Virus record (IMG/VR): IMGVR_UViG_3300042892_003562
Span: 1 to 64,000 of that record
DNA: 64,000 nt
Strand: one strand, 5' to 3'
From: a virus
Position 1 is the first letter of the stretch, and each line of letters opens with the position of its first letter. Position numbers and translations under genes: made by a program. Shown here piece after piece: positions 1,171-63,291 of the stretch. The notes beneath the pieces were generated by a model that saw only the letters and a list, made by a program, of their open reading frames with translations, ran no database searches and was not told the DNA's origin.

Positions 1171-1368
1171 ATGAAATGCTCCCGCTGCGGACACACCGTC
1201 CCGAACGTAGAGTGTTACGTCTGCTGGGAACAACCCGACGAAGGGAAAGACGCCTTTAGTCAGGCTAAAGACCTTGAATGTGACGACTGCCAGCAGTCGC
1301 TCTTCCACAACTCTCCTACAAGCTCGTCAGACACCCCAATGGGACATGGACAGCCATCCACCGTTTGA
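1171..1368 (+). CDS. small Cys-rich hypothetical protein
   Basis: Three CxxC pairs; AAACC before ATG. Confidence 0.4.
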   Translation: MKCSRCGHTVPNVECYVCWEQPDEGKDAFSQAKDLECDDCQQSLFHNSPTSSSDTPMGHGQPSTV

Positions 1369-1724
1369 CGAGCTTGTAGGTCCACCCCTTAACGCAAGAA
1401 ACACCATGCCCATGAAATCAGGCGACCGCGTCACCACTCCGGACGGAGAGGGAATCATCGTCGACTTCGAAATCCACCCGTCGCTCCATTCGAAAGTGCC
1501 GACGTATTACATCCACAACGAGCCAATGCCGGGACTCCCCGGCGAATACATCCGCTGCGGGGTGAAGGGCTGCCACGAACACATCCGCGTCGCATACTAC
1601 CCGCTCGACCAGATCAGCCAAGATCCGCAGCTGTAATTCAAATGTCGTCGCAAAGCCCTCAACCGTTTGAGGAAGCTTTCCAAAGAAACAACCGTCCAAC
1701 CACCTGTTCAGCCTGACTAAAGCC

Positions 1725-2453
1725 ATGTCACCCACCATAATCCGCAACGCCAAAGCATTCGAAAAAGAGCTCCGCGCCCTCAATTCGAACAACCTCACCA
1801 TTTACCAGATCGCCCGCGCACTCAAGATCACCCCGGCAACGACGAAACGCTACATGAATCATCTCGGGATAAAACTGGCGAAGCGCCGGAAGGACAGGGA
1901 CACCAAGCCCGACCTGCGGGTGGACGAAATGGTGGCGATGCGGAAAAAGGGCTTCACCCTCGACAGTATCGGAGGCAAGTTCAACCTCACCCGCGAACGG
2001 GTGCGTCAAATCCTCCAGCGGGAATGCCCCGACTTCGTCTTTCCCGTCAGGGTGGTGAAGAGCCAGCGCTGCAACCACTGTGAGATGGAGTTTACCCCGA
2101 CCGGGCCGTCTCCGAAGTTCTGCAGCCAGAAATGCAAGGGCTCCGCCAAAACCATCTTCAACCGCGAAACCGCGCTCGACATCATGCACGAGCGGGACAA
2201 GGGAAGCACATGGAATGAAGTGGCAAAAGCCATCGGCAACGGGTCCGGACACGCCGTGTTCCGTGCCACCATCCAGCGAAACAAAGGATTTTTCAGCATC
2301 ATGGAACAGCTGAAATACTTCCCGAAAAAAGGCGAGAAATACTTCAAGCCGGACAATGACAAGGAGTTGGGAGAAACCAAAGGATGTGAAGAACTTCAGG
2401 ACTCCTTTACCATAAGAGGGTTGCGCTCTCTTTTCTCCTTGCTCCGCCCGTAA
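1725..2453 (+). CDS. HTH DNA-binding protein with sigma70 region-4-like HTH and Zn ribbon
   Basis: TIYQIARALKITPATTKRY (HTH), TLDSIGGKFNLTRERVRQI (sigma70 r4.2 signature), CNHC...FCSQKC; preceded by motif copy 1707-1721. Confidence 0.7.
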   Translation: MSPTIIRNAKAFEKELRALNSNNLTIYQIARALKITPATTKRYMNHLGIKLAKRRKDRDTKPDLRVDEMVAMRKKGFTLDSIGGKFNLTRERVRQILQRECPDFVFPVRVVKSQRCNHCEMEFTPTGPSPKFCSQKCKGSAKTIFNRETALDIMHERDKGSTWNEVAKAIGNGSGHAVFRATIQRNKGFFSIMEQLKYFPKKGEKYFKPDNDKELGETKGCEELQDSFTIRGLRSLFSLLRP

Positions 2454-2533
2454 CCCCGTGGTAAAAGCCTCCCGGAATCAAGCCACCGGGCACTGCTCAC
2501 CGGCACGACAGCCACAACGTCAACTACCAAAAC

Positions 2534-2573
2534 AAGACCCCGGACCGAGGTGAAAACCCCGCCGGGGTCTTTT
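2534..2573 (+). terminator. Rho-independent terminator
   Basis: AAGACCCCGG...CCGGGGTCTTTT hairpin followed by a T tract. Confidence 0.65.
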
Positions 2574-2586
2574 GCGTCCACCCATC

Positions 2587-2748
2587 ATGAAAACATACAG
2601 CCAAGAACAACTCATCCAACTCCTCACGGAATGGATGGTGAAATACCGAGGAAGCCCCATGGAGCTTGACGATGAAGTTCGAGACCAATGGTATCGAGAC
2701 AACGGTCTGATCGCTCATTTCATCCGCGACCACTTCCCATCCCCATGA
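2587..2748 (+). CDS. hypothetical protein (53 aa)
   Basis: Hand-translated MKTYSQEQLIQLLTEWMVKY...; ATGA overlap with next gene. Confidence 0.45.
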   Translation: MKTYSQEQLIQLLTEWMVKYRGSPMELDDEVRDQWYRDNGLIAHFIRDHFPSP

Positions 2749-2903
2749 AAACCTACAAGATCATCCGCTTCTACGCGCCCGGAATCGACAAGGAAAACCA
2801 CGTCGTCAAAACGGGCCTCACCTTGGAAGAGGCGCAGGAACACTGCAACGACCCGGACACCCGCAAGGAGGGAGAATGGTTCGAAGGATACGACGAGGAA
2901 TAA
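2745..2903 (+). CDS. hypothetical phage protein
   Basis: MKTYKIIRFY...GLTLEEAQEHCNDPDT...WFEGY; start reassigned to ATG 2745. Confidence 0.6.
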   Translation: MKTYKIIRFYAPGIDKENHVVKTGLTLEEAQEHCNDPDTRKEGEWFEGYDEE

Positions 2904-2919
2904 ATTCCCAAAATCCTTC

Positions 2920-2947
2920 TTGACGATCCGGTCGTCTTAACTACCTT
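2920..2947 (+). promoter_or_regulatory. putative sigma70-type promoter
   Basis: TTGACG-N16-TACCTT just after a stop codon and before a long non-coding structured region. Confidence 0.4.
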
Positions 2948-2949
2948 CC

Positions 2950-4060: not shown

Positions 4061-4072
4061 CCGTCCGTCGTC

Positions 4073-4531: not shown

Positions 4532-4532
4532 C

Positions 4533-4763
4533 ATGAAACATCCAATTCAAGTGCGCTTGATTTGCGGCGAGCGAAGCAACATCCTTCGCAAGCTCTACGT
4601 TGATCAGGTGGGCAATTTCAACCGTGTCGCCTGTCGTTACGCCGGAAAAACCTACATCGTCCACTCCGAAGCCGGAGACTTAAGCGACCCTTTCCGGGCG
4701 GACGCCAACTACTTGGACTGTCTTTACATCAAAACGTGGGAGCCCTGCCAGTGGTCTCTTTAG
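4533..4763 (+). CDS. hypothetical protein
   Basis: Tightly packed ORF; TAG stop supplied by motif copy 4759-4773. Confidence 0.55.
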   Translation: MKHPIQVRLICGERSNILRKLYVDQVGNFNRVACRYAGKTYIVHSEAGDLSDPFRADANYLDCLYIKTWEPCQWSL

Positions 4764-4775
4764 CCTGACTAAAAC

Positions 4776-5816: not shown

Positions 5817-5819
5817 ACC

Positions 5820-6195: not shown

Positions 6196-6217
6196 TTTTT
6201 CAGCCTGACCAAACACC

Positions 6218-8058: not shown

Positions 8059-8082
8059 GCCCTCCGGGCTGGAGACCATTTT

Positions 8083-8304: not shown

Positions 8305-8306
8305 CC

Positions 8307-10300: not shown

Positions 10301-10323
10301 TCACTTTAGCCTGACTAAAACCA

Positions 10324-12000: not shown

Positions 12001-12370
12001 TGGAGGACAATGGACTCGCGCCAGAATGACCTCCTTCATCAAAAGCGCCTTGCGCGGAGCCCGCTGGCCGCAAAAATACGAGTGCATCAAGGCGGCGTTC
12101 GTCGAGCACGGGATCAATCCGGCCACCGGCCACAAGTGCAAGTTGCACAAATGCCCAGAATGCCAAGGGTTGTTCCCGCAAAACATGATGCACGCCGACC
12201 ACATTGTTCCCGTCGTTGGACCGGAAGGTTTCAAGACATGGGACCTGTTCATCGAGCGGTTGTTTTGCGAAGCGGACGGCTTCCGCGCCCTCTGCAAACC
12301 CTGTCACAACCTCCAAACCTCAAAGGAACGCGCCGGACGCACCTTTGAAAAGCTTCTCTTCCCTCTTTAG
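11903..12370 (+). CDS. HNH-fold Zn-binding phage endonuclease
   Basis: WTRARMTSFIKSALR, CPEC, HADHIVPVV, IERLFCE, LCKPCH; start uncertain (overlaps the HNH gene). Confidence 0.7.
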   Translation: MDKEKALQKDASKPRLKHAKTGKRNTSIERPYNGGQWTRARMTSFIKSALRGARWPQKYECIKAAFVEHGINPATGHKCKLHKCPECQGLFPQNMMHADHIVPVVGPEGFKTWDLFIERLFCEADGFRALCKPCHNLQTSKERAGRTFEKLLFPL

Positions 12371-12426
12371 CCCGGCTAAAGCCCTTCGGGCTGGGGACCA
12401 TTTTGTATTCTCAGAACACCAACCAA

Positions 12427-15236: not shown

Positions 15237-15269
15237 CACCTGTTCACACTTTAGCCTGACTAAACACTC

Positions 15270-16418
15270 ATGACCACACCACACACCGTCTATTTTAACG
15301 AAGCCCCCGTCGACCAGTCCGACTACCCCGCCCTCGCCGAGAAGTTCAAAATCCCTTATGAAGTGGTGTTCCGCTGTGTCGAGGCGCTGGAGAAAACCGG
15401 GGAGGTGCCAATCATGGCGTTTTCCGGTCCAACCAGAGAGCGTGTGAGGGCCTTGGCGATGGCTTTGGGCACTGAGTCCCCGGAAGCCGCTCAGGACGCG
15501 CCACAGGAGCCAGCGGAAGCCCTTGCGGAGCCACCTGCGGAGATTGTCTACGACGCCAAAGACGAACCAACCGAATGGGAACGTGAATCCATTCACTCCC
15601 AGCATGTGAATTCCCCGCAGACAAAGGATTCCAGCGATGTTCAAACTAATTTCGTGACCAAAGACGACGAGTTTGACCCGGAGGAAACCACCGAGCGCGA
15701 CGAGATTGTCGAACACGCGGCCCACGGGCTGATGGAAGCGTTCTCCGACTCGGAAGGCTGCTTCATCATCTCCGACGACGGGTGCTGCCGGATCAATCCG
15801 GACAAGCCGCCGACGATTCAGCACTCGCTGGTCGTCGTTGCCAACGTCCTCAAGCTAAAAGACTTAGGGACCGTGGTGGACGACAAGAGCTCGTGGATGC
15901 TCGGCTCGATCATCTCCTCCTTGGAAGACTTCCACGGCGAGAACTTCTCCGTCTCCCAAGTGTGCGACTCCACCACCAAGGCCTACAACACGGTGGTCAC
16001 CGCCGTCGGCGTGTTCAACGCGTTCAAGCTGAAGCGCTACAAGCTGTCGTTCTCGTCGCACAAGGAGGCGCACTACGCCAAGATCCCGGACGCCCACAAG
16101 AAGCTCATCCTGCACAAGGCCGAAACCTACAAGGTGGGGCCGAAGTCGATCCGGGCGCTGTGCTCCATCGCCAAGACCATGGAGGACGACACCACCATCC
16201 GCAACATCCGCAGCCAGAAGCAGGCGCTCGACCTCATTGCCGCCTACAAGGAGGCCAAGGTCACCTACATCGTTTACGAGGAAGGCGAGTGGACGCGGGT
16301 GAACGGACTGGCCGGTGATCCGCCTGAAGGCAAGATTGTTTTGAACACCAAGGAGTGGACCGCGCAGGTCGGCAACCAAATCCTCCCCATCGCCAAGCGC
16401 AGCACCCTCAAGTCATGA
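15270..16418 (+). CDS. putative LmbU-like DNA-binding regulator
   Basis: C-terminal half SSWMLGSII...AYNTVVTAVGVFNAF...RYKLSFSSHKEA...LHKAE...SIRAL resembles the LmbU consensus as I recall it; acidic N-terminal linker. Confidence 0.45.
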   Translation: MTTPHTVYFNEAPVDQSDYPALAEKFKIPYEVVFRCVEALEKTGEVPIMAFSGPTRERVRALAMALGTESPEAAQDAPQEPAEALAEPPAEIVYDAKDEPTEWERESIHSQHVNSPQTKDSSDVQTNFVTKDDEFDPEETTERDEIVEHAAHGLMEAFSDSEGCFIISDDGCCRINPDKPPTIQHSLVVVANVLKLKDLGTVVDDKSSWMLGSIISSLEDFHGENFSVSQVCDSTTKAYNTVVTAVGVFNAFKLKRYKLSFSSHKEAHYAKIPDAHKKLILHKAETYKVGPKSIRALCSIAKTMEDDTTIRNIRSQKQALDLIAAYKEAKVTYIVYEEGEWTRVNGLAGDPPEGKIVLNTKEWTAQVGNQILPIAKRSTLKS

Positions 16419-16771: not shown

Positions 16772-16840
16772 ACAACCAGCTCACGGACGCCTAAGCGTTC
16801 CGTGCAGCTTCATGTTCTCAACTTTAGCCTGACTAAACCT

Positions 16841-20087: not shown

Positions 20088-20481
20088 GCGCCACGAGGCA
20101 CCAAGGAAGCGCCGCAGGCTGCCGACGGTCAGTGAGTCACGGAAAGCCCTCTCCGTGGCCTACAGGGCGTGCTACGAGGCTATACCGTCTCATCCTCAAT
20201 GCCCGAGATGCGGGCTATCGCTCCCTAAAGATCAGCTTGAACGCCACCACCCGGCAGGCAGACGCAAAGCCGCCTTCCTATTTACGGTTCAAACATGCTC
20301 TCCGTGCCACCAATGGACCCACGCCCACCCCAAGGACGCCGAAGCCGTCGGTCTCTTATTGTCCGGTCGCAACTCCAAAATCCTCACCCTTGCCGCAGCA
20401 ACTGAGCTGGTGGTAAGACAACGGTTTCCTGCCATGTATTCCATTGACATCCTGAAAGCCTTTAGCCTGACTAAACCATGA
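20035..20481 (+). CDS. HNH-like Zn-binding nuclease
   Basis: CPRC...LERHHPAGR...CSPCHQWTHAHP; start uncertain (in-frame ATG 20035). Confidence 0.55.
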   Translation: MDTSPTATTRTEPELTYERHEAPRKRRRLPTVSESRKALSVAYRACYEAIPSHPQCPRCGLSLPKDQLERHHPAGRRKAAFLFTVQTCSPCHQWTHAHPKDAEAVGLLLSGRNSKILTLAAATELVVRQRFPAMYSIDILKAFSLTKP

Positions 20482-22507: not shown

Positions 22508-22528
22508 CTTTAGCCTGACTAAACCACC

Positions 22529-24120: not shown

Positions 24121-24138
24121 CCTTTAGCCTGACTAAAC

Positions 24139-27300: not shown

Positions 27301-30300
27301 TAACCAATGACCAGCGCCTCCACCATGTGGGACAACTGACTCAACGCGTTCTTCATGTCAACATGCTCAACGTCCACCTTCTTGTCCGCCGCCAGCTTGA
27401 AACCAGCCACCTTGTCACCCGGACGGGCGTTGGCTCGGGCGATCAAAAGCTCCGCGTGACGACCGGAATACTCCTTGGCCACCTGTTCACGGGTGGTTCC
27501 AGAAGGGGTGAACCTCGCTCCACCAAACGCATGGGTCCATGTCCCGTCTTTCCATTCACGGGTGAAGCCCATCCGGTTCTTGGTCTGGGGTTGGGGCGTT
27601 GGTTCGTCGGTGTCGGGAAGAGAGTTGAGGACGACGTCGCGCATCGTGATCTTCTTGCCTTTGCGCTTGGCGGTCTTCTCCGCAGGGGTGAGCTCGCTGT
27701 TGGAATGGTAGCGGTTCTTCAGGTCCTGCTCGGCGTTGATCTGACCCAGCATGATCCACTCACCGTTGTTGATGAGATGGCCGATGATGTCCTTGCGGGC
27801 GGCGAAGTTGGACGGCACCTTGTATTTGGAGACTCGGCGGGCTGCGTTTAGCCGGGCTAAATCAGCCTGAAGACTCTTGATCTTGTTCCGGTTTCCGGCA
27901 ATCGGATGCTTGAACAACTCCTTGTCGGCGAGCTTGGTCTCAATGGCTTTGATCTGGTTGTTGATAACCTCAAGATTACCTCTCAGACCACTCCGGAACT
28001 TCGGATCAACCGACAGCTTCACCAGACGGGTCTTTTCGTTCTGAAGCGAAACCATCTTCTCAAGCATTGGAGCGGCACGCTCTGCCTCGGTCTGACGCTG
28101 GGCCAGCTCGTCCCTCACCTTCATCGCTTCGACCACGTTGCTCGTGGAATAGATGCTGTGGACTCCGGGCTCCGCCAGCAAGGCGATGGCGTCAGGACTC
28201 AGTTGGGAACCCGATCCGGTCACTCCCCCGAAGTTGTTCTTGAACTCGGTCAGACGCGCCTCGGCGATCCTCTCCTGCAACGTGAGCGTGTCGCTCACCT
28301 GACGGATAATCGCCGCTGGGTTATAGTCGTTGAAGTAAGCTTGGTCGCCCTTCACCGCACGGTAGAGCTCGTCGGCATGACGGGCGTATTGACCGAGCGA
28401 CTTGGTCAGAGCCTCTTTCATAATGTAGAACTCGTGGTCCTTCTCTCCTTCCGGCGTGGCGTTCCACTTGGCTGCAAGCTGGGCAAGACCCGCCTCAATC
28501 CCCATCTTGTTCTCGAAGTTGGGGGTGGTTCCGGCAGGGTAGAGGACGATGGTGGCGTTCACCGATTCGGTGCGTCCGGTCGGTCCTTTCTCACCGGAGA
28601 TGAAGACGTGGCGACCCGCCGACCACGGGGTGACCGAGCTGTGGGCGAGACGCTGGAAGAACCCTCCCTTCAATGGATTGCGGTCGATACGGACCAGACC
28701 AGCCAACTCCTTGTTTGCCAGTTCGACATTCTGGCGAGCGACACGCAACTTGTTCATTTCCGACGCATCCAAAACCTTGCCACGCTCCGCGATCTCCATC
28801 TTGAGACTTGACGAAAGCTGCATCTCGTTGAGCAGGGCTCTGGTGTTCTTCTGGCGGTTGGGACGGACCTTGGAATCGTTTTCCAATGAGTCGAACTTCT
28901 CGTTCAATTCCCGAACCAACGTCTTTGCCGCAGCTTCCTTGCCGAACGTGCTGATCTCGCCGATGGTTTGATTGAGCAGCTTCTGGTAACCGCTGCGGTT
29001 GGGCGCGAGCTTGGCCGGAAGGTTCGAACGGTAGATCGCGTCAGCCTCCGACAGCACGTGCTGGAGAATCATCTCACGTTGAGCCTCATCAATAAGGTTG
29101 ATTGACTGCGAGTTGAACAAGTCAGGCGTCGCCGCCATCACGGCTTCAATCCGGTCGACCTCCGATTGGTTGAACGCAATCCGGTCTTCGATAAACGCCT
29201 TCCGGTCCTTCATCGCCTGAAGCTCGCGGCGGGCCTCTGCCTCATGGCCTTCCAGCATTGGAAACACATTTTTCATCTCGGCGTAGACTTCGGGCGTCAA
29301 GGCCATGTCGGCGAAGGCGCGTGGGTAGATGACAAGCTTGTCCTGCCCCTTGCCGTTGTCGACCCAAGCTTGGGTTCCTTGGTCAATGGAACGCTGGGCT
29401 TCCTTGCGGATCACCGACTCAACACCGGAGACACGGGAAAGAAGACCGCCGGAGAACGATTTGAACCGGTTGCTCTCGTGGTGAAGCGTGGACGCGGTGC
29501 GTCCGTTGATCCGTCCTTCCATCATGTTGTGCCATGCGGTGACAACAGGGACTCCCTCACGGCCCTGAAGCCTGCTCTCCTGTGTCCGGCGAAGCCCCTT
29601 GGGGGTGTTCTGTCTGACGACGGGACGCGCCTGCGGACTGGTGGACTCGCTGAGAAGTTGTGTTCCCGGAGTTGGCCGTCTCGAAGCCATCCCCTCCATC
29701 TGGGTTCTGGCGTCAAACCGCATCGACTCATGCTCCTTGGCAAGACCGATCAGGTCGACAAAGAGGTTGATCATCATCGCGTCGCTCGCTGGCAGGCTTT
29801 CTCCGTTCCATGCCGGGTCCTCAAACCCACCACGTCCACGGTGAAACTCCTCCAACACCGCCTCCATCCGCTTGTCCATCACCCCATACTCAGAGATGTC
29901 GTGGTTCTTGTTGCGGAGATACTGGAGGATGCTGGAAACCGACGGCTCGACGGAACGAAGCAACTCCTTGTCCTCGTTCGACGGCTCGATGTCCAACTCG
30001 ACTTCCTGACGTTCGGTGGAGTCGACGCGGCTGGCGAGGAACTTCTCAAGCTCCGACTCCATCCAGCTCTTCTCCACATCGTCAGCCGCCTGCTCTTCGG
30101 CCAGATCCGAATCCTCGTCGGTTTGAGGCGTGGCCTTGGTTTCCATCGCGTTGTCGAAGGCGTATGGGTCCTGTTCCTCCACCGCGTCCTCGCCCATCTG
30201 CTTGTTTGCCAGAAGGATTTCATTGAGGGTGGCGTTGGACAAGTCGCTTGATTTCAATAGGTTGTCTCCGAAAAGGAAGCGGTCCAGAAGCTTCTTCATG

Positions 30301-36300: not shown

Positions 36301-39300
36301 GGATCGCCTGCAATCTCAACCACCGCGTTCACCCCGATGGGGAGCGTCTTGCCCTTGGCAGGCTTGTAGTAAATCTGGCTCTTGTCGTCCTTCGACCACA
36401 CCCCGCCAAACTCGTCCTCCACGTCCATTGTTGACAAGTCGACGTAGAACTTCGGCGTGGACGGATCGAGGAACAACGGGTCCTCCTCACCGGGCTTGTC
36501 GTTGGCCGTGTCTGGCTGGGCGTCAAGGACGTTGGTTGGCTTCTCTTTGAACTTGCGAACCGCCTTGCGGACGTCGGCTGCATTCTTGATCTCGGACTCG
36601 GAGATCAACAGGACACGCTGGTTCGCGGGAATTCCGTACTCCTCGCGGGCGGACGTCTCGTCATCCCCGACAACCACCGCCACGCCATCGTCCCACAGCT
36701 CCTGAAGCGCCTCGTCCACCATCGCCGCCTTCTGGTGAGGCTTGCGTCCAAGGACGTCCCTGACGGCGGCTGGAGCTTCCGGAGTTGTTTCTTCGGAAGC
36801 TCCTTCGGTCAGCACATCCCCTTCGTTTTCGGCTTGGGCTTCGTCGTCGGTTTCGGTTTGGTCTTCATCGGGTGGTGTTGGTTTCTTGGTTTCTGCCGCC
36901 GGAGTGGCGGAGGGAGCTTCTTTAGCCGGGCTAAAATCGTCCAACTTTTCAGCTGGCCCAAAAATACCTTCGTAATACTGATTGGCTTGATCCAAAGGAT
37001 CGGAGCTCATCTCAATCGACTCCTCAAAAGCGTTTTCTGGATTATCAAGAGGCACATGAATGATGATAACTTCATCTACTTCGATCCCACTGACCTTGAG
37101 CGCTTCCACGTAGGCCTTCATTTGAACCTTGTGAGACATTGCCTTTGAAGCACGCTTCCGGAAAGGAGCCTTCTTCTCCGTATAGCCATTGTTGTAATTC
37201 TGATAAGAGGCTTCTTCGCTGGCGGTCTTGGTATCCACCAGAATCCACTTGCCGTTGGCCTTCGGGATCAGACCATCCACCATCCCTGCGTATTTTTTTG
37301 TCGCAAACGCACCTTCAGTGACAACTGGCCCGGACGCTCTCTTTTTCAAACCTTTGATAATCTCCTTAACCTTGTCACCAAGTCCGGTGGGCTCGCCCTT
37401 AAATTCTTTCTCTACCTCTGCGTGGAAGGCTGTCCCTTCTTCAGCAGCGAGAGCTCCCGCCGCAGTTGACTTCCGTTGGAAGTGGGGATGCTTCTTCATC
37501 AAGGTGGTGACGGACGGCTTCACGTCCCCGTCCGCCTCGTAAATATGGTTCTCCTCATCGAAGGAAATTCTCTCAGGCTTGAACGCTGAGTCGAAGTCTT
37601 CGTTGCCCGTAGGGGTTCTTTTGACTAGCCCTTTGACAGGTGCCAAAGGCTCTGGGCCTGATGTCGGGACAACTTTGCTAGGACCTGAAGCTTCGCTATC
37701 GACGACTCTTTCGGGGCTTGGAGGATCTCCCACACCTTCTTTGCCGGGAGTGGGGACTTTTGGATTAGCTCCTGAATCTGTTCTGCTTTGGATCGGTCTT
37801 GCATAGTTGGTGGTTTGAGAAGAATCGAAATTGCCGAAGCTCTTGAGCATCCCCTTGCGGATTTTCGCCTCGGAACCGAGAGCCTTCATCGGGCTGATCG
37901 GGTCAGCCGCCTTGAGTTGTGCCGTCGCCTCGGATGGAGACAACACCTTGGTCTCGCCCTTGGAGTTGGTCAGCACCGCGCCCATCGACGTCTCTCCCTT
38001 GACCGCGACGCTCTTCATCGTGAACGTCTCTCCGCCAACCGTGAAGTTGTGCGTGAGGTCGCGCTTCGGATCGCGCATCTCCGGGTTCCACTCCATGTCG
38101 TTTCCGTCCTTGTCCTTCGGTGCCGGACCCAAATGGTCGGTCATTTCCTGAGCATGGACGGTCTTGGGGTCAGGAGGGGTGTTCCTTGCCTTCTCCTGCG
38201 CCTTCTGGGCGCGTTCAACGGGAGTCGTGGCACTTGGCTCCAGACGGCGGGCAAAGCCGCTCACGGCGTGCTGTGAGAGCACCTTGGCCCGCTTCTCCAC
38301 CGGGATGGATTCATCGGCCATGTAGTTGGCCACCGAAACCACCGGAGCTCCGGACGCCGCCTTGATCCCCAGCATCTCCGCAGACGCATCACTGTTGTTT
38401 TCCTTGATGTCCTTCCAGATCACCTCGGCAAACTCCTTGATCTCACGGACGCGGGTGTCCCGGTTCTTCTTGCGGAAGGCTCCAGCCGTCTCAACGACCA
38501 TCCCTCCACTCTCACCCAACCCGCCACCGAACGCACCCATCACGCCCGCCGCCATATACTCACTGAACTTGTCACCGATGTTGTCCCAAACCTCGCCCTT
38601 CCACGTCTTGGAATCGTCGAGCACGGCGAGGAACACGTCGGACAGCGCGGTGTCGAAGGTTTCCTCCATGAACTCGGCACCCATTCCAACCGCAGGGCCG
38701 TAGCCTTTCAGACCGTTGGCGCGGGCGGCGCGGTTGATGGTCTCGCGCAGCGCGGGTGCCAGCGCCTTGCGTAGCTCGGAACCTTCCGCCGCCAATCCCT
38801 CAAGGGTCTCGATAGCCGCCTTCTGAGCGTCTTGAGAAACAGCGCTCTTCATCGCCTTGTTGAACTTGAGATGCTTGAAAATTGACCCGCTGAGCCCGCC
38901 CTCGACACCGCTCATGCCTTTTTCAAGACCCGGAGCAATCCGGTTGAACGCGGCGGTCGCGATGAACGCGGCGGCTCCGTCTGCCAATCCCTTCATTCCC
39001 GCCTGATGATACGCCTCCTCGGCGTCACCGGTCTTGTCAAAAACCTGATTGTAGGTGGAGCCGAAGGACATCCCTCCGGCCTGCAACGCGCCGATGTAGG
39101 CGGAAGGGTCCTTGATCGCCTTGATACCGAAATTCTTCAGCGTGTTCGGAGCAAGCTCGGTCATCGCCTGCTTCATCGCCTTCTCGGAAATCGTGATCTG
39201 CCTGCCCATCGCTGTGGCGGCTCCTGTGCCCTGCAACGCGCCAACTCCCTTGAGTCCGAGACCGCCGCCGATGACACCACCTACAATTCCTCCAACCATC

Positions 39301-42107: not shown

Positions 42108-42133
42108 GGGCGTGTTTAGTCAGGCTAAAGTTA

Positions 42134-43741: not shown

Positions 43742-43760
43742 GGTTTAGTCAGGCTAAAGG

Positions 43761-44417: not shown

Positions 44418-44493
44418 GGTTTTTCGGGAGAGTATTGATTATCAGGAAAACTTCAAGATCGGAGTGAAATGATTTTATTTAGCCGGGCTAAAG

Positions 44494-49396: not shown

Positions 49397-49984
49397 TCAG
49401 TTGATTGGCCCGTCGATAAGAATCATCGCGAACCTCTTTAGCCCGGCTAAATGAAGCACCTCGTTGAGCGTGCGGCGGAAGTCGTTCCACTGCTCGGGCG
49501 GCAGCGTGAGACACCCCTCGGAGGATGTCCCGTTCACCCCGCCCAGATGCAGGTTGATGCCGAACTCGCCGCTCTCGGTCACTCCGATGACGCCGTCCTT
49601 CTTGACCCGCTCCACGGTGACGAGGTCAGGCCCCTGCCCAAACGCCTGATACTTGGCGCGGTGGATGAGCGGGCGGAACCACCAGCAACCCGGCTTGAGG
49701 CGAGCCATGAACTTGTCGGCGTTCGAATTCCAGCCGTAGCGGCTCGGGTCGGTGTTGCCGTTCCAAGCGGTCATGGCGGTGGGCGTGACGATGAAGAACG
49801 CGTCGTCGTAAACCGAGATGTCGTTCCCCGGATCTCCGATGGTCTGCGAGTAGTAACCCCGCACCGCGAGCACGAACCGCTCGGGCAGTGGCGACGTGCC
49901 GTGCTTGTCCGCCCACGCCTCGGTGGCCTTGCGGATGACGAGGTCGCGGGGGGCCTTGGGCTTGCTCTTGGGGATGGGGATCAT
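49397..49984 (-). CDS. endolysin candidate, YkuD/L,D-transpeptidase-like Cys peptidase
   Basis: LAVRGY...YDDAF...NTDPS...GINLHLGG...SSEGCLT (His...SxGC motif); in lysis cluster. Confidence 0.7.
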   Translation of the reverse strand: MIPIPKSKPKAPRDLVIRKATEAWADKHGTSPLPERFVLAVRGYYSQTIGDPGNDISVYDDAFFIVTPTAMTAWNGNTDPSRYGWNSNADKFMARLKPGCWWFRPLIHRAKYQAFGQGPDLVTVERVKKDGVIGVTESGEFGINLHLGGVNGTSSEGCLTLPPEQWNDFRRTLNEVLHLAGLKRFAMILIDGPIN

Positions 49985-50489: not shown

Positions 50490-50627
50490 CTACTTTTCGG
50501 AGTAAATGATGATTGCGCGTGCGGCCTGCTCACCGTTCAGGGACCACGTTCTCGCGCCGTCGCTATCGACGGTCAGGGAACACGAGTTTAGCCCGGCTAA
50601 AGAGGCGAGGATGAGGAGTGTTTTCAT
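50490..50627 (-). CDS. small lipoprotein (spanin-like candidate), 45 aa
   Basis: Hand-translated MKTLLILASLAGLNSC|SLTVDSDGARTWSLNGEQAARAIIIYSEK*; lipobox LNSC; absent from the ORF track (<60 aa). Confidence 0.6.
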   Translation of the reverse strand: MKTLLILASLAGLNSCSLTVDSDGARTWSLNGEQAARAIIIYSEK

Positions 50628-50628
50628 G

Positions 50629-56789: not shown

Positions 56790-56809
56790 GGTTTAGCCGG
56801 GCTAAAGGG

Positions 56810-58729: not shown

Positions 58730-58993
58730 AATTTTAGGTGGTTATCGAGAGTTCTTTGTTTAGCCCGGCTAAAGATCGGTGATCTTTCTTGGTTGATGCC
58801 AAGGCTTGGAAAACAGAGCTGGCGCACTTGCGCTTGCTCAAAGGATGCTTTCTTAGAACGGATAACGACCGAGCCTCCGAATCAGGACCTTTTCAAAACC
58901 CGCCTGATTGTTGGGTTCGAGAAGGTTTTGCCCTAATCCGGAGGCCACGTCAACTACTTTGTTTCAGGAATCTTGAAATTCCCAAAATATTTA

Positions 58994-60193
58994 TCAATGC
59001 GTGAACGCGTAGTCGCTGTTCATAGCTTCCATGAAGTCCTTCGGCTTGTTGCCGTCGGGCTTGGTGGCCTGCACGGAACTCCCGGCCTTGGCTGCCGTGC
59101 GGACGCTCTTGACGTCCTCCTTCTCATACACTGAAAGGCGCTTCTTGAGGGCGACCAGCTCCTTCATCGCGTGCGGCAGGGCGGACCCGGCGAACGCGGC
59201 GAACGCCATGTCGTTTGCTTTAGCCCGGCTAAAGTCAATCGCCAGCCCCTTGGCCACCAGCTCCTTGAACTTGGGTGTCTCGCCGTCCTCGTCGACAAAG
59301 CCCGGAATCACTTCCTTGTATTTGTCCCAGATGGACTTCTGGAGGGTTTGGACGCTGACGCGTTGGTCGGCCAGCAGCTTGCGCTCGGATTCGACGCGTT
59401 GCACCTTCTGTCGTTCCAGTTCGCCCTCGGCATTGGCCATCATCTGCTCGCGCTTGTCGATGAGGTCGCCGAACTTCTCGCCGAACGACAACACCTTGGA
59501 CTGGATGACAAGGGACGCCTCGCCGAAATGGGTGGACATCAGCTCCTCTTGGACAACGGGATCGCGTTCCTTGATGATCTGGCGAAGGATTTGCGGGTCG
59601 AGCTGGAGACGCTCGGAAAGCTGGTCGGCTTGGGTGAAGATGGCGGCGGCTGGCTGAACCACCTCGCGCTGGTAAACGTCTTCCGACTCCACCTTGAGCT
59701 TGGCGCTCTGTGAGCTCACCTCGGTCAAGCGGGCCTTCAGGCCGTCAATCTCTGCGGTCTTGAGCTCAAGCTCTTGCAGTTTGGCTTGAACCTCGGGCGT
59801 GACGGTGGACTGCTTGGCGGCTTTCAGCTCAGCCTTGAGGGCTCTGAACTTCTCCCCGGCCTTGGCCTCCATCCCTTTGACCTCCTCCTCGGTCTGCTTG
59901 TCGAAGGCCTCCTCGTTGAAGGCTCCCTCCTTGACCGGCTCCTTGGCCTCTACGGGCGTCTCTGGCGCGTCGGAGAAGAATTCCTCCTCAATGACAGGGG
60001 TGGTGTCTTCCGGCGTCTCCTTGGGCTCCACGGGAGCATCAGGAACGGCGGCTACGGGGTCGGGCGCGGCTGGCGTTGGTTCCAGTCCGGCTTGCGGGCC
60101 GTCAAAGAACGCGTCCATCGCGGCCATCACGTCGTGGTTGGGGTCGCCGTAAACAGCGTCCGCCATTGTTGTATCTGTGTTTTCTTGAGACAT
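58994..60193 (-). CDS. capsid scaffolding protein
   Basis: Acidic Pro-rich N-terminus, long coiled coils; between portal and capsid. Confidence 0.65.
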   Translation of the reverse strand: MSQENTDTTMADAVYGDPNHDVMAAMDAFFDGPQAGLEPTPAAPDPVAAVPDAPVEPKETPEDTTPVIEEEFFSDAPETPVEAKEPVKEGAFNEEAFDKQTEEEVKGMEAKAGEKFRALKAELKAAKQSTVTPEVQAKLQELELKTAEIDGLKARLTEVSSQSAKLKVESEDVYQREVVQPAAAIFTQADQLSERLQLDPQILRQIIKERDPVVQEELMSTHFGEASLVIQSKVLSFGEKFGDLIDKREQMMANAEGELERQKVQRVESERKLLADQRVSVQTLQKSIWDKYKEVIPGFVDEDGETPKFKELVAKGLAIDFSRAKANDMAFAAFAGSALPHAMKELVALKKRLSVYEKEDVKSVRTAAKAGSSVQATKPDGNKPKDFMEAMNSDYAFTH

Positions 60194-60504: not shown

Positions 60505-60666
60505 TTAATCGTTGGTTGGCTTGCTTGGAGATTGTTTCCATTGATCCTTTTTTGCGACTAGCCAGTCACTCTTCCAGAACCAATAGCGGCAACGCCCATA
60601 AAGAAGTTGAAATCTCAAGCGATCCTCAAAAGGAAGATCCTTAATCCATGGATGATTACTAATCAT
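60505..60666 (-). CDS. hypothetical protein
   Basis: MISNHPWIKDLPFEDRLRF...; start ATG 60666. Confidence 0.4.
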   Translation of the reverse strand: MISNHPWIKDLPFEDRLRFQLLYGRCRYWFWKSDWLVAKKDQWKQSPSKPTND

Positions 60667-60670
60667 GATT

Positions 60671-60931
60671 TTAGTCGTTGGTCGGTTTGAGGCGGCGGGA
60701 GGTGGAGCCTTCAAACTGAGGCTTCATCTCCGCCAAGGCGTAGAGCTTCAGCAAGACCGCCACGGCCCCTTCCGTGTGGTTGTAGGCCATCGCACAGGCT
60801 TCCAGCGTTGTCGCCCCGCGTCGCTCGCGGAACACCCCGTTGAGAGCTTCCTCGATGGCCTTGGTCATGGTCTGGCTTTGAAGCAGCGCCTTGAGGTCCT
60901 GCTGCTCTAGGACGGATAGTAGTGTTTTCAT
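60671..60931 (-). CDS. hypothetical protein (head assembly region)
   Basis: 86 aa, 5 nt after motif 60937-60951. Confidence 0.6.
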   Translation of the reverse strand: MKTLLSVLEQQDLKALLQSQTMTKAIEEALNGVFRERRGATTLEACAMAYNHTEGAVAVLLKLYALAEMKPQFEGSTSRRLKPTND

Positions 60932-60946
60932 GAATCTTTAGCCGGG

Positions 60947-63268
60947 CTAAACCTGCGTGGCCTTGAGGCGTTGGAGCTTGGCCTGCGCCTCGGCGTCTTT
61001 GGTGACCAGTCCGCTCATCGCCTTCTGGGCCTCGGCCACCTGCTTCCATTCCCCGGCCTTCTTGATGTTCTCCAGCTTGAGCAAACCAATCTGCATTTCC
61101 TGCTGCATCTTCTGGCGATGCTTCATGTCGCTCATCTGCATCTCCTGCTGGGTCTTCTGCTGGAGCTTCTGGTCCTCGCTGAGCTCCTGTTGCTCGCCGC
61201 CGGGGCCTTGTTCGCCGCCCTCTTGAGCCGCCTTGTTGATCATCTTCAGGCCGTTGACGACAATCTCGCCAACCTGCTGGACCTGCTGGTGATACTGGTT
61301 GAGCTCAGGCTGCACGCTCTCGTGAACCACCGTCATCTCCAAAGTTGCAACCGCATGATCGTAAAGCATTTGATGCTCCATCGTCCATTGCATGAGGTCG
61401 ACCTGACCCTCGTCCACCCCCTTCAATCCCTCCATGAGCTTGTTGATGTGGATGGGGAGGTGCACCATGTGGAGCTGGCCGTCCTTCGGGTCCATGTAGT
61501 CGCCTTCGAGAAGCTGGAAGTTTTCCAAGGTGGCAATCGAGTCGTCGTATGGAATGCGGGTCTCGTTCGGCGTTCCGGCGTAGCGGTCGGCCAAGTCCAC
61601 CCCGCCCAACATAATCAAACGGTCGTAGTCGAAGTTTTTACGTCCCACCGCGTCCCACGTCGAATAGCCTTGCTGGATCTGGTCCATCAGCATGATCCGT
61701 GACGCACGGGAACCGGTGCCAATGATCCGCGTGGCCTGCACCCGCTTGAAGTCGATTTGCTTGAAGACGCTCTCAGGGACGCCACGGGCCACACAGCGGG
61801 CCTTCATCTCGCGCACGCGGGCCGCAGCCTGCTTGTCCTTCTGCCTGACCGTGAACGCCCGACGGACCTTCTCCTTCGTGATCTTGTCGTAGGGACCGTA
61901 GAACAACGTGACGGCGAAGCTGTTGAGCTTGTTGATGAAATCGAGCTTGGAGCTGACTTCCAGCTTCGTCTGACGGCTCTTGTCGTCGTTCATCATCATG
62001 TCGCCGGAAGCAAGACCGCCGGTCGCCCGGTTGAGGATGGAACGCGTTTCGTTGATGGCTGGCATCAAGGCGTTGTTCAGGTTGATCCCCACCTGCCTGT
62101 CCGGCATCTTCATCGTCGGCGGAATCATGATGGCCGAGCCGGAGTCGATCAGCATCATGTCCTGCTCGTCTTCCGTGGAAGCTGGCTGGAGAATCAACGA
62201 CGACCCGACCCGGGCATTATCGAGCATCTTGCAATGGAGGATGTCCCCGGCGTTGCACAGCTGGAAGATCAAATATCCCAAGCCGCGCACCGTGTAGAGC
62301 CGCCCGCCGTTACCTACGCTGAAAGGAAAGATTTGGAACGCCTGATCCACCGAATCGTAGTGGCCCGGCGACTTGAAGATGAAATCCTCCGGCCCGCCGT
62401 CCTGATCGGACAGCGCGTTCTTGGCCGAGATGTAGTAGGACCAGCGTCCGTCAAACTCCCTGATCCACGAATGGATGACGGCGATGTCCTCGCACTTGGA
62501 GTCGACAAAAATCTCGTTCGCCTTGATCTGGCGCTGCATCTCCTCCCAGTCGTTCCAGTCGGACTTCACCTGACGGGCGCTTTGGAGAATGGCCTTGCGA
62601 ATGGCGTCCTCGTTCCAGCCCTCGCCGCCAATCTTGGTGAACAACTCGGTGACACCGTAGGAGCCCAGCGAATGCGCCTGCTCGATCTTGGAGGTGATGA
62701 TGCCGCTCTTGCGCGGAAACTTGAAATGGTCGAGACCGGCGACGGAATACTGCATCGTCTCCTTGTCGTCGAAATAGGCAATGGCCACCCCGTGCTTGAC
62801 GTAGGTGGCGGCGAGCTGGATGTGCAGGGCCAACGCCCCGTCATCATCCCGGTCCATCACCGTGTATTCCTCGGCCAAAATCTGGCTCCACGTCAGCGCC
62901 TGCTGCTTATCCACCGTGGGAAGCAGAGGGATGTCAGCCAGCACTTTGGGCGTAGTGTAGATGTCGACGTAGGCGGCTTGGGCTTCCGTGAGGATGGTGG
63001 CTCCCTCACCGGTGGTGATGTTGAAGCGGTCGCTCTGGCCCTTGTTCTCCAGCTCGGCGGCGTCGTGCGGCGGCGTGTAATCGGCCAACCCGTCCACCAA
63101 GGAGCGGTTGAACGAACTGTCGTTGTCAGCCTCGCGCAGGAGCTCGTAGCCGTTCCGCGCCGCAGCCGGACTCCCCAGCCTTTCCTTCGGTTCCTCCAGC
63201 GTCTCGGCGTCGAGGGTTTTCAAGTCGTCGAGCGACTGCTCCGATTCGCGGAAGAGGGAGGTGGTCAT
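60947..63268 (-). CDS. portal protein
   Basis: 773 aa just after the terminase; Gln-rich helical C-terminal tail typical of podovirus portals. Confidence 0.75.
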   Translation of the reverse strand: MTTSLFRESEQSLDDLKTLDAETLEEPKERLGSPAAARNGYELLREADNDSSFNRSLVDGLADYTPPHDAAELENKGQSDRFNITTGEGATILTEAQAAYVDIYTTPKVLADIPLLPTVDKQQALTWSQILAEEYTVMDRDDDGALALHIQLAATYVKHGVAIAYFDDKETMQYSVAGLDHFKFPRKSGIITSKIEQAHSLGSYGVTELFTKIGGEGWNEDAIRKAILQSARQVKSDWNDWEEMQRQIKANEIFVDSKCEDIAVIHSWIREFDGRWSYYISAKNALSDQDGGPEDFIFKSPGHYDSVDQAFQIFPFSVGNGGRLYTVRGLGYLIFQLCNAGDILHCKMLDNARVGSSLILQPASTEDEQDMMLIDSGSAIMIPPTMKMPDRQVGINLNNALMPAINETRSILNRATGGLASGDMMMNDDKSRQTKLEVSSKLDFINKLNSFAVTLFYGPYDKITKEKVRRAFTVRQKDKQAAARVREMKARCVARGVPESVFKQIDFKRVQATRIIGTGSRASRIMLMDQIQQGYSTWDAVGRKNFDYDRLIMLGGVDLADRYAGTPNETRIPYDDSIATLENFQLLEGDYMDPKDGQLHMVHLPIHINKLMEGLKGVDEGQVDLMQWTMEHQMLYDHAVATLEMTVVHESVQPELNQYHQQVQQVGEIVVNGLKMINKAAQEGGEQGPGGEQQELSEDQKLQQKTQQEMQMSDMKHRQKMQQEMQIGLLKLENIKKAGEWKQVAEAQKAMSGLVTKDAEAQAKLQRLKATQV

Positions 63269-63291
63269 AGGTGTTTAGCCGGGCTAAAGGA

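What the first reader, a model, noticed from the sequence alone, without database searches (positions are those of the whole stretch)
1255..63288. Genome-wide 15-bp palindromic element sitting where the Shine-Dalgarno should be
Seen: at least 25 copies of TTTAG-N5-CTAAA with a constrained core (mostly CCTGA or CCCGG and their complements). Fourteen lie 1-7 nt upstream of an ATG on both arms (1707,4759,6199,10305,15250,16823,20461,22509,24123 on +; 42115,43744,56792,60937,63274 on -). All 14 read CCYGR in the sense direction, so the element is oriented. Some copies supply the upstream gene's TAG stop (4761, 12368, 60947). Eight are inside CDSs in either orientation (1255,27847,31918,34018,36921,49437,50587,59219). 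Three ncRNA clusters end directly at a copy (6199,10305,22509). Analogies: mycobacteriophage L5 stoperators and cluster K start-associated sequences; N4 virion-RNAP hairpin promoters; the TTAG..CTAA arms of DtxR/MntR-family operators. Inference: a global regulatory or organising site for a dimeric protein, an RNA hairpin for processing or initiation, or a cassette-shuffling recombination point. Sequence alone cannot separate these.
Basis: partly seen in the sequence, partly recalled or inferred. Interest (0 to 1): 0.85.

Follow-up and report, generated by a model that had tools for sequence, protein, structure and literature searches.

The report
Palindromic gene-boundary sites in phage
An uncultured lake phage and all its relatives carry 15 to 30 evenly spread copies of one short DNA palindrome, mostly wedged between a stop codon and the next start codon; it most likely serves as the docking site of a phage-made dimeric DNA-binding regulator.

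Summary
The window holds 23 exact and 2 variant copies of TTTAG-N5-CTAAA against 0.01 expected. The whole 73.9-kb phage genome, which has direct terminal repeats, holds about 30.

The element is family-wide. Fourteen related lake-phage genomes or fragments (39-58% GC) carry it, some with a 6-base centre.

About 70% of copies lie in the roughly 14% of sequence that is non-coding, typically as stop codon, motif, then ATG. Each relative's ~5,000-residue gene also holds 2-5 in-frame copies written with rare Leu codons. Spacing in this genome is more even than random.

Half-sites occur only as inverted pairs.

This favours a symmetric site on double-stranded DNA over an RNA hairpin or a directional promoter. 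The half-site equals that of the IncP-1 KorA and KorB operators, but the spacing differs.

One candidate binder is the family-wide product of 15270-16418. It is a predicted homodimer with a weakly ParB/KorB-like DNA-binding domain.

No RNA polymerase gene, host repeat or RNA 5' end data were found. The mechanism stays inferred.

The parts
1707..1721 (+). Variant copy TTCAGCCTGACTAAA, 3 nt before ATG 1725 (HTH protein gene)
4759..4773 (+). TTTAGCCTGACTAAA, 2 nt before ATG 4776. Its TAG is the stop of ORF 4533-4763
6199..6213 (+). Variant TTCAGCCTGACCAAA, 4 nt before ATG 6218, at the end of a ~380-nt stretch with no called gene
10305..10319 (+). TTTAGCCTGACTAAA, 4 nt before ATG 10324, at the end of a ~640-nt stretch with no called gene
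15250..15264 (+). TTTAGCCTGACTAAA, 5 nt before ATG 15270, the gene of the candidate binding protein
16823..16837 (+). TTTAGCCTGACTAAA, 3 nt before ATG 16841 (start of the primase/helicase region)
20461..20475 (+). TTTAGCCTGACTAAA, 2 nt before ATG 20478
22509..22523 (+). TTTAGCCTGACTAAA, 5 nt before ATG 22529
24123..24137 (+). TTTAGCCTGACTAAA, 1 nt before ATG 24139, at the point where the two arms converge
42115..42129 (-). Sense TTTAGCCTGACTAAA, 7 nt before ATG at 42107. The same junction carries the motif in relative G001
43744..43758 (-). Sense TTTAGCCTGACTAAA, 2 nt before ATG at 43741
56792..56806 (-). Sense TTTAGCCCGGCTAAA, 2 nt before ATG at 56789 (tail-fibre-like gene), directly after a strong hairpin plus T-run. 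The same layout occurs in G010, G003 and G001
60937..60951 (-). Sense TTTAGCCCGGCTAAA, 5 nt before ATG at 60931. Its TAG is the stop of ORF 60947-63268
63274..63288 (-). Sense TTTAGCCCGGCTAAA, 5 nt before ATG at 63268 (773-aa ORF, presumed portal gene; no family match). 29 of 42 related loci have an N5 or N6 form within 12 nt of this start
58759..58773 (-). Copy 29 nt before ATG at 58729 (489-aa core gene). The same 27-31 nt offset is kept in G001, G010, G013 and G009
12366..12380 (.). Perfect palindrome whose TAG ends ORF 11903-12370, followed by a GCCC-TTCG-GGGC hairpin
44478..44492 (.). Perfect palindrome 2 nt after the stop of 44494-46209 and 61 nt before the next start
50587..50601 (.). 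Perfect palindrome in the gap between 50043-50384 and 50629-51009
1255..1269 (.). Copy that reads TCAGG on the + strand, away from any confident start
27847..27861 (-). In-frame copy in the 5486-aa ORF (encodes LARLN with rare TTA and CTA codons), at the start of the conserved C-terminal 1187-aa block
31918..31932 (-). In-frame copy in the 5486-aa ORF (encodes LVGLN)
34018..34032 (-). In-frame copy in the 5486-aa ORF (encodes LAKLN with rare TTA and CTA codons)
36921..36935 (-). In-frame copy in the 5486-aa ORF, just after the exonuclease-like module
49437..49451 (.). Copy about 40 nt before the stop of ORF 49397-49984. G003 has a copy at the same gene end
59219..59233 (.). Copy inside ORF 58994-60193, shared only with the close relative G010
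15270..16418 (+). Candidate cognate protein (382 aa), present in every relative. It has a central helical domain weakly like ParB/Spo0J/KorB DNA-binding domains and a C-terminal five-strand domain, and it is a predicted symmetric homodimer

Best explanation
The element is a symmetric operator-type site on double-stranded DNA. It is an inverted repeat of the half-site (C)TTTAG(C/T)C around one central base, or two in some lineages.

I infer that a phage-encoded homodimeric DNA-binding protein recognises it, and that the protein acts genome-wide as a global regulator, a roadblock, or a loading site for a protein that spreads along the DNA.

The sites sit about every 2.5 kb. Where a gap between genes is available, the site fills it, so it runs from the upstream stop codon to within 1-7 nt of the next ATG. 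Inside the 16.5-kb gene, which has no gaps, the sites are written in frame.

Where a site overlaps a translation start region, the G-poor half-site variant faces the ATG. This keeps the mRNA leader unstructured and A/C-rich.

The most likely binder among those examined is the family-wide product of 15270-16418, whose own gene is preceded by a site.

Shown here: the anatomy, the conservation, the symmetry and the nucleotide-level selection. Inferred: that a protein binds, which protein it is, and what binding does.
For: 1. Excess. There are 23 exact copies against 0.01 expected, and about 30 in the genome.

2. Family-wide. True relatives share 40-79% amino-acid identity in core genes at 39-58% GC. 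They carry TTTAG-N5-CTAAA, or TTTAG-N6-CTAAA in G009 (30 copies), G002 and G005 (13-14 each) and G008.

3. Only inverted pairs. In G000, 43 of 46 TTTAGCC half-sites lie in palindromes. Solo half-sites number 3 against 7 expected.

4. Symmetry extends to positions 7 and 9, and to the flanking C and G (CTTTAGCC/GGCTAAAG, 21 counts over both strands). Positions 7 and 9 cannot pair across a one-base loop.

5. Orientation. Asymmetric variants show no bias away from starts (15:18) but 25:1 next to an ATG. The start-adjacent form gives the weaker sense RNA hairpin: mean -1.12 against -1.79 kcal/mol, and -0.2 for the main form.

6. Placement. 191 of 274 core sites lie in non-coding sequence or at gene ends, which make up about 14% of the genomes.

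7. Even spacing in G000. The coefficient of variation of the gaps is 0.57 against 0.95 for random placement (P = 0.002). The giant gene holds 2-5 copies in each of the six genomes tested.

8. Nucleotide-level selection. Intragenic copies use TTA and CTA, which are 1.6% and 2.0% of Leu codons. Both LAxL[KN] peptides in the giant protein are encoded by the motif.

9. Precedent. The KorB operator TTTAGC(G/C)GCTAAA and the KorA operator GTTTAGCTAAAC of IncP-1 plasmids use the same half-site at other spacings.

10. Candidate protein. gp15270-16418 is in all relatives. Its residues 179-352 align with the ParB-parS DNA-binding domain (Z 6.7, rmsd 7.7, 118 aligned), Spo0J (Z 6.4, rmsd 3.9, 102 aligned) and the KorB-operator domain (Z 5.3, rmsd 3.6, 105 of 114). 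Spo0J and Noc are among the three rows with the highest Foldseek probabilities. Distant homologues of this domain are fused to MT-A70 DNA methyltransferase. The homodimer prediction scored 0.68 against a best control of 0.00; runs agree in at least 88% of contacts and partner pLDDT is at least 83. That mark was reached by 20 of 30 proteins solved as pairs and by 1 of 23 solved as single chains, and it rests on my own alignment.
Against: No binding has been shown.

The structural matches of the candidate protein are middling (Z 5-7, no better than unrelated helical hits), and the Foldseek E-values are 0.6-0.9. Pfam models for KorB, HTH_ParB and ParB_N find nothing in five genomes of the family.

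N5 and N6 spacings coexist in G002 and G005. A rigid dimer would not tolerate that easily; a hairpin loop would.

In two large non-coding gaps the motif sits at the very end, against the ATG (6199, 10305). This suggests a link to gene starts beyond simple use of free space.

A site 1-7 nt before the ATG is an odd place for a classical operator unless transcription starts very close by, and no promoters have been located.

Even spacing is significant only in G000 and G001 against a uniform null model.
Confidence: 0.45

Rival explanations
1. Gene-start punctuation at the transcript level. The motif is the promoter of a phage-specific transcription system, or the recognition site of a processing nuclease. 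It creates mRNA 5' ends a few bases before the ATG, giving leaderless or very short-leader mRNAs in a host that does not use Shine-Dalgarno pairing.
For: It is the only repeated signal in intergenic DNA. Sigma-70-type promoter matches are at chance level, 8 against 7.2.

14 window copies lie 1-7 nt before an ATG, and family-wide the spacing peaks at 2-5 nt. In two large gaps the motif sits at the ATG end.

At the tail-fibre junction a strong hairpin plus T-run is followed at once by motif and ATG in four genomes. A fixed 27-31 nt offset before the 489-aa core gene is conserved.

Start-adjacent copies are strongly oriented, 25:1.
Against: No RNA polymerase was found. The giant protein gave no PDB sequence match and only one PHROG hit (an exonuclease family), and its conserved C-terminal domain had no polymerase among the fold matches listed.

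The site is a palindrome. Copies away from starts show no orientation bias, 15:18. A 96%-identical relative has the opposite centre at three start-adjacent sites.

About a third of strict copies are inside genes or follow a stop codon with no start nearby. The distance to the ATG varies from 0 to 12 nt, and reaches about 30 nt.

The only RNA data were assembled contigs, which cannot show 5' ends.
Confidence: 0.25
2. An RNA hairpin on the mRNA. It would act as a translational operator bound by a phage protein at the ribosome-binding region, or as a 3' stabiliser or processing hairpin between cistrons.
For: The motif lies exactly between stop and start codons. 5- and 6-base centres both occur, as loop-length variation would allow. 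Perfect forms can fold at -2.8 to -4.5 kcal/mol. Some copies directly follow a stop codon with no start nearby, including the end of the giant gene in G009.
Against: The commonest start-adjacent form folds at only -0.2 kcal/mol, and the G006 form at 0.

Next to an ATG the sense strand carries the C.A mismatch rather than the U.G wobble, 25:1. That is selection against pairing, not for it.

The arms never vary, so nothing covaries. The outermost pair changes without compensation in G003. Conservation of C7 and G9 cannot be explained by pairing. Copies occur in both orientations inside genes.
Confidence: 0.12
3. A recombination linker. The conserved 15-mer would serve as a short shared homology at which the phage's Erf/exonuclease system swaps gene cassettes between co-infecting relatives.
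For: The phage encodes an Erf-like annealing protein and an exonuclease.

Strain contigs and relatives lose similarity right at motif edges: 12363, 20459, 6218, 16843, 22526. 18 similarity-block ends fall within 20 nt of a motif against 6.5 expected.

Conserved blocks in the giant gene begin at a motif copy in G001, G009 and G011.
Against: Per site, similarity breakpoints are no more frequent at motif sites (0.58) than at gene starts without the motif (0.50). The effect is therefore explained by gene boundaries.

This reading does not explain the tight distance to the ATG, the orientation rule near starts, or the even spacing.
Confidence: 0.08
4. A chance pattern or a repeat borrowed from the host chromosome.
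For: None beyond single exact matches in many bacterial genomes.
Against: 0.01 copies are expected by chance.

No listed locus is related to the phage, and none holds more than 3 core matches in 8 kb.
Confidence: 0.02

Closest known systems
KorB operator OB (TTTAGC(G/C)GCTAAA) and KorA operator OA (GTTTAGCTAAAC) of IncP-1 plasmids RK2/RP4
   Same: The half-site TTTAGC / GCTAAA is identical. All are palindromes bound by dimers and present in multiple copies over a mobile replicon, and they act as global regulatory sites. KorB combines a helix-turn-helix DNA-binding domain with a C-terminal dimerisation domain. The model of the candidate phage protein has a similar order of parts (helical domain, then a five-strand C-terminal domain).
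   Different: The arms are separated by 5 or 6 bases here, against 3 (OB) or 0 (OA). There are about 30 sites, not the few per replicon recalled for RK2 (12 OB, 7 OA; from my own knowledge, not confirmed in the passages read). The sites abut start codons rather than lying at -10 or upstream of -35. No KorB, HTH_ParB or ParB_N sequence signature was found. No CTP-binding motif was seen. A ParA/IncC partner was not searched for.
[quoted passage not shown]
   Same: Tens of copies of a 13-15 bp site lie on both arms, mostly in short intergenic gaps. They are thought to act genome-wide through one phage-encoded DNA-binding protein. This description rests on established knowledge and on the contrast drawn in PMC3203893.
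   Different: Stoperators are asymmetric, have one orientation relative to transcription and belong to a temperate phage's immunity system. This site is a palindrome, is oriented only next to an ATG, and no integrase or repressor was seen in the proteins searched.
Start-associated sequences (SAS) of cluster K mycobacteriophages
   Same: A conserved 13-15 bp repeat sits 3-7 bp before start codons, which are almost always ATG. It sometimes contains the upstream gene's stop codon, is conserved across subclusters in front of unrelated genes, is absent from the host, and has no known function (PMC3203893).
   Different: SAS are non-palindromic, contain the AGGAG Shine-Dalgarno core, are confined to the non-structural arm and are rarely intragenic. 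This motif is a palindrome, has no SD, lies on both arms and occurs in frame inside a giant gene.
Hairpin promoters of the coliphage N4 virion RNA polymerase
   Same: A short inverted repeat (5-7 bp stem, 3-base loop) lies just upstream of the transcript start, in a ~70-kb phage with terminal repeats and a giant virion protein. This comparison is from my own knowledge.
   Different: N4 has only a few such promoters at the early end. Here there are about 30 all over the genome, some with a 6-base centre, some inside genes and in both orientations. No polymerase was among the fold matches to the one giant-protein domain that was modelled.

Membership tests
IncP-1 KorB / OB system (ParB family) | 13-bp palindromic operator TTTAGC(G/C)GCTAAA | tested here: not met
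   The half-site is the same, but the arms are 5 or 6 bases apart, not 3. A palindrome census found no N3 or N0 form with 4 or more copies.
IncP-1 KorB / OB system (ParB family) | Protein with KorB / HTH_ParB DNA-binding domain and ParB_N CTPase domain, recognisable by sequence | tested here: not met
   PF08535, PF17762 and PF02195 give no match at E <= 10 in G000, G001, G002, G006 and G009, while control genomes do match. A profile of the candidate protein finds no PDB relative.
IncP-1 KorB / OB system (ParB family) | ParB/KorB-type fold of the DNA-binding domain | tested here: inconclusive
   VIA-align gives ParB-parS Z 6.7 (rmsd 7.7, 118 aligned), Spo0J Z 6.4 (rmsd 3.9, 102 aligned) and KorB-operator Z 5.3 (rmsd 3.6, 105 of 114). 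Unrelated helical proteins score equally. Foldseek E-values are 0.6-0.9.
IncP-1 KorB / OB system (ParB family) | CTP-dependent clamp closure and sliding from the loading site | not testable with these tools
   This needs biochemistry.
L5-type stoperators | Asymmetric site in one orientation relative to transcription | tested here: not met
   The site is a palindrome. Its asymmetric variants are unbiased away from starts, 15:18.
L5-type stoperators | Many copies in short intergenic gaps on both arms | tested here: met
L5-type stoperators | Cognate immunity repressor of a temperate phage | tested here: inconclusive
   No integrase or repressor appeared among the proteins scanned, but many small ORFs were not scanned.
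Cluster K start-associated sequences | Repeat 3-7 bp before start codons, mostly ATG | tested here: met
   14 window copies lie 1-7 nt before an ATG. Family-wide the spacing peaks at 2-5 nt.
Cluster K start-associated sequences | Contains the Shine-Dalgarno core and is non-palindromic | tested here: not met
   The motif has no AGGAG and is a palindrome.
N4 virion-RNAP hairpin promoters | Virion-packaged single-subunit RNA polymerase | tested here: inconclusive
   The giant protein shows no polymerase match by PHROG, Pfam or PDB sequence. No polymerase fold is listed for its conserved C-terminal domain. The other ~4300 residues were not modelled.
N4 virion-RNAP hairpin promoters | Few promoters at the early end, with a 5-7 bp stem and a 3-base loop | tested here: not met
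   About 30 copies lie genome-wide, some intragenic, some with a 6-base centre, and the main form folds at -0.2 (RNA) or -1.4 (DNA) kcal/mol.
Intrinsic (rho-independent) terminator | G+C-rich stem followed by a T-run | tested here: not met
   The arms are A/T-rich and are followed by A/C-rich sequence. The terminator scan of 1-20000 gives 21 sites against 29.9 in shuffles, none of them at a motif copy.
Host REP/BIME-type chromosomal repeats | Abundant in a bacterial chromosome | tested here: inconclusive
   The scan of one genome per species returned only single hits, and no phage-related or multi-copy locus.

The most novel reading that the evidence does not exclude
The phage family carries an evenly spaced array of loading sites for its own KorB/ParB-like dimer. 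The dimer spreads from each site and so coats, silences or times expression of the whole 74-kb genome. The sites also act as the punctuation between genes, and are even written into a 16-kb ORF with rare codons. This would be a plasmid-style global silencing clamp adopted by an apparently lytic phage (no integrase or repressor seen among the proteins scanned) and carried by a protein with no recognisable ParB sequence.
Probability: 0.15. Interest if true: 0.8.

Novelty: new variant of a known kind. Interest (0 to 1): 0.6.

Why it matters
Genome-wide arrays of one exact site are rare in phages. The two classic cases are stoperators and start-associated sequences, and the function of the latter was still unknown in the 2011 paper read here.

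This array defines a whole uncultured lake-phage family across a 20-point GC range. It is held by selection even inside coding sequence. It shares its half-site with the IncP-1 KorA and KorB operators.

It comes with a concrete candidate protein and clear oligonucleotide designs (N5 against N6, and C/C against C/T half-sites). The question of how such arrays work can therefore be tested at the bench without culturing the host.

The element also gives a simple sequence marker for finding and annotating gene starts in this phage family.

Tried and rejected
RNA evidence. The one read-laying run had only assembled contigs, from one metatranscriptome and two runs labelled RNA-Seq that are probably DNA. 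Contigs cannot show 5' or 3' ends, so nothing can be said about transcripts.

Cultured relatives. No nucleotide match, and no match to the presumed portal protein (60947-63268), was found in 50,697 phage records. The primase matches only at about 30% identity.

RNA polymerase search. PHROG, Pfam and PDB-sequence searches of the giant protein gave no polymerase; the only family hit was a PHROG exonuclease. Foldseek on its conserved C-terminal 1187 residues gave no hit at E <= 0.001. VIA-align gave only Z <= 6 helical matches; the top one was a phage core protein. Absence of a polymerase is not proven.

Upstream elements. TTGACA lies 11 nt before the motif at 15250 and 20461. The copy before 20461 lies in coding sequence of the upstream gene that is shared with relatives, and no upstream element recurs across sites. 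Hairpins upstream of the motif are no more stable than in random windows, mean -8.9 against -8.8 kcal/mol.

Phyletic pattern. No gene is present only in motif-rich genomes. The apparent 'motif-less' relatives turned out to use the N6 form.

Other candidate binders. The 1725-2453 HTH protein occurs only in the closest relatives, so it cannot be the family-wide binder. The 181-aa HTH_7 protein (genome 68702-69247) and the 95-aa protein (23507-23794) are family-wide but gave no informative match.

Other searches that gave nothing useful. ESM Atlas leads for the 581-aa protein (Rep_trans, Phage_CRI; score 0.79) are at noise level. Rfam found nothing in the window. Pfam scans of 20 distant homologues of the candidate protein gave no family except MT-A70 in two of them.

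Full report
WHAT IS THERE

The window is the first 64 kb of a 73,925-bp IMG/VR virus record rated 100% complete, with 127-bp direct terminal repeats.

Genes run rightwards from 1 to 24.3 kb. This arm holds an exonuclease, an Erf-like annealing protein and a primase/helicase. Genes run leftwards from 24.3 to 66.4 kb.

No cultured phage is related at the nucleotide level or to the presumed portal protein. DNA runs that hold the sequence are lake, freshwater and estuary metagenomes.

No called gene shows a recognisable Shine-Dalgarno sequence. The bases before the start codons are A/C-rich, for example ..aaccATG.

TTTAG-N5-CTAAA occurs 23 times exactly, against 0.01 expected. Two degenerate copies, at 1707 and 6199, bring the window to 25. 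The genome has about 30.

There are two main forms:
- TTTAGCCTGACTAAA, 13 copies.
- The perfect palindrome TTTAGCC(C/G)GGCTAAA, 16 copies.

The flanks extend the symmetry to CTTTAGCC...GGCTAAAG.

THE ELEMENT IS FAMILY-WIDE

An exact-match scan of IMG/VR found the 15-mer in several copies on other ~70-kb contigs. I fetched eight near-complete relatives and six fragments. They share 40-79% amino-acid identity in core genes while ranging from 39% to 58% GC.

All carry the element:
- N5 form in G001, G003, G006 and G010-G014 (3-22 core matches each).
- N6 form, for example TTTAGCCACGGCTAAA, in G009 (30 copies), G002 and G005 (13-14 each, alongside 4-5 N5 copies), G008 (15, with looser ends), G015 (5 core matches) and, mixed with N5, G007.

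Orthologous junctions keep it:
- 29 of 42 related loci have a copy within 12 nt of the start codon of the presumed portal gene.
- The 489-aa core gene has one 27-31 nt upstream in five genomes.
- The tail-fibre-like gene has a hairpin plus T-run, then the motif, then ATG, in four genomes.

The other condition, an abundant host repeat, is not met either.

WHERE THE COPIES SIT

I counted 274 core sites in 15 genomes:
- 93 lie within 12 nt of an ATG that opens an ORF.
- 81 lie elsewhere in intergenic DNA.
- 17 lie at gene ends.
- 83 lie deep inside genes. From the 8-base core I estimate that some tens of these are chance matches.

Non-coding DNA is only about 14% of these genomes.

The usual layout is stop codon, 0-15 nt, motif, 0-30 nt, ATG. 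Some copies follow a stop codon with no start nearby, such as 44478, 12366 and the end of the giant gene in G009.

In each of the six genomes tested, the giant gene contains 2-5 strict copies. In this genome they are read as L-A/V-x-L-N or F-S-P-A-K. They use TTA and CTA, which are only 1.6% and 2.0% of Leu codons in that gene. That is selection on the nucleotides, not on the peptide.

Spacing in this genome is more even than random. The coefficient of variation of the gaps is 0.57 against 0.95 (P = 0.002), and the largest gap is 6.2 kb against 10.4 kb expected.

DNA OR RNA, SYMMETRIC OR DIRECTIONAL

Four results bear on this.

1. Half-sites occur almost only as inverted pairs.

2. The symmetry includes positions 7 and 9 and the flanking C and G. 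These cannot pair across a one-base loop, so pairing does not explain their conservation.

3. The common variant has one C half-site and one T half-site. It is unbiased in orientation away from starts (15 against 18 in non-redundant genomes), but next to an ATG it is 25 to 1. The orientation chosen gives a C.A mismatch in the mRNA, where the other would give a U.G wobble. Accordingly the start-adjacent form folds at -0.2 kcal/mol as RNA, and sense hairpins at starts are weaker than their antisense counterparts.

4. In a 96%-identical relative, three start-adjacent sites carry the opposite centre. The orientation is therefore a preference tied to the translation start region, not a property of the element.

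Together these points favour recognition of the duplex by a symmetric dimer. They argue against a self-folding mRNA hairpin and against a directional promoter.

One point favours a hairpin: N5 and N6 forms coexist in G002 and G005.

A CANDIDATE BINDER AND A PRECEDENT

The half-site TTTAGC is that of the IncP-1 global regulators. The KorB operator is TTTAGC(G/C)GCTAAA and the KorA operator is GTTTAGCTAAAC. The arms here are further apart: 5 or 6 bases against 3 or 0.

Among family-wide proteins, the 382-aa product of 15270-16418 stands out. Its gene is preceded by a copy of the motif.
- Its model (pLDDT 75) has a small N-terminal domain, a disordered linker, a helical domain and a five-strand C-terminal domain.
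- The helical domain aligns with the ParB-parS (Z 6.7), Spo0J (Z 6.4) and KorB-operator (Z 5.3, 105 of 114 residues) DNA-binding domains. Unrelated helical proteins score as well.
- Foldseek E-values are not significant, though Spo0J and Noc are among its three highest-probability rows.
- Pfam's KorB, HTH_ParB and ParB_N models find nothing in these genomes.
- A full profile search found distant homologues in which this domain is fused to an MT-A70 DNA methyltransferase, which fits a DNA-targeting role.
- Residues 141-382 are predicted to form a symmetric homodimer. The score was 0.68 against a best control of 0.00, with at least 88% contact agreement between runs and partner pLDDT of at least 83. 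That mark was reached by 20 of 30 proteins solved as pairs and 1 of 23 solved as single chains. The counts hold only roughly, because my own alignment was used.

All of this is suggestive, not proof.

RIVALS

The promoter or processing reading keeps real weight. The motif is the only repeated intergenic signal. Sigma-70-type promoter matches are at chance level. In two large gaps the motif sits right against the ATG. However, no polymerase gene was found, and the symmetry and intragenic copies fit this reading poorly.

The recombination-linker reading is weak. Similarity breakpoints with relatives are enriched near the motif (18 against 6.5 expected), but they are no commoner per site than at gene starts without it, 0.58 against 0.50.

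VERDICT

This is a real, strongly selected, family-wide palindromic site array. It is best read as the operator or loading site of a phage-encoded dimeric DNA-binding protein (confidence about 0.45). Its placement and local sequence are shaped by the neighbouring start codons.

It is a new variant of a known kind, alongside the KorA and KorB operators, stoperators and start-associated sequences. It is not a member of any of them by their defining features.

Noticed in passing
window 9669-10335: In two wastewater runs labelled RNA-Seq, this bin has summed contig depth of about 3,560-3,760, against 8 or less elsewhere on the 20-kb stretch. Some very abundant foreign RNA or DNA is at least 88% identical to part of this non-coding gap. 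Rfam at gathering threshold finds nothing.
   Followed up: partly
window 12427-13197: Contigs from two other samples join 12426 directly to 13198/13199. About 770 bp is therefore an insertion in this genome. It holds a minus-strand ORF (12427-13170, 247 aa, TTG start) and may be a mobile gene.
   Followed up: no
window 16841-19016: The ATG after the motif at 16823 opens a 116-codon frame (to 17191) that overlaps the 684-aa primase/helicase ORF (16962-19016) in another frame. A strain contig skips 16843-17141. This could be a frameshift, an indel or a split N-terminus.
   Followed up: no
window 24300-27860 (C-terminal 1187 aa of the 5486-aa ORF): This is the part of the giant protein best conserved across the family (28-45% identity). 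It is predicted to be almost all-helical (pLDDT 69, pTM 0.72). There is no significant fold match; the top weak hit is a phage core protein.
   Followed up: partly
window, all called genes: No called gene shows a recognisable Shine-Dalgarno sequence, and starts are preceded by A/C-rich, G-poor sequence. TATAAT is 2- to 6-fold rarer than in composition-matched shuffles in four genomes of the family. The host probably starts translation without SD pairing. The host itself is unknown.
   Followed up: partly
   Followed up: partly
P0174, P0186 (distant homologues of 15270-16418): The central domain of the candidate binder occurs at the N-terminus of MT-A70 DNA methyltransferases in other metagenomic proteins.
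   Followed up: partly
L210, L212, L213, L226, L227, L230 and about 20 other Flavobacterium loci: Many Flavobacterium species each hold one exact TTTAGCCTGACTAAA followed by an ATG, mostly at the same total match length (24 nt; a few are 23). These may be one conserved orthologous locus rather than chance hits. I did not examine what gene it precedes.
   Followed up: no
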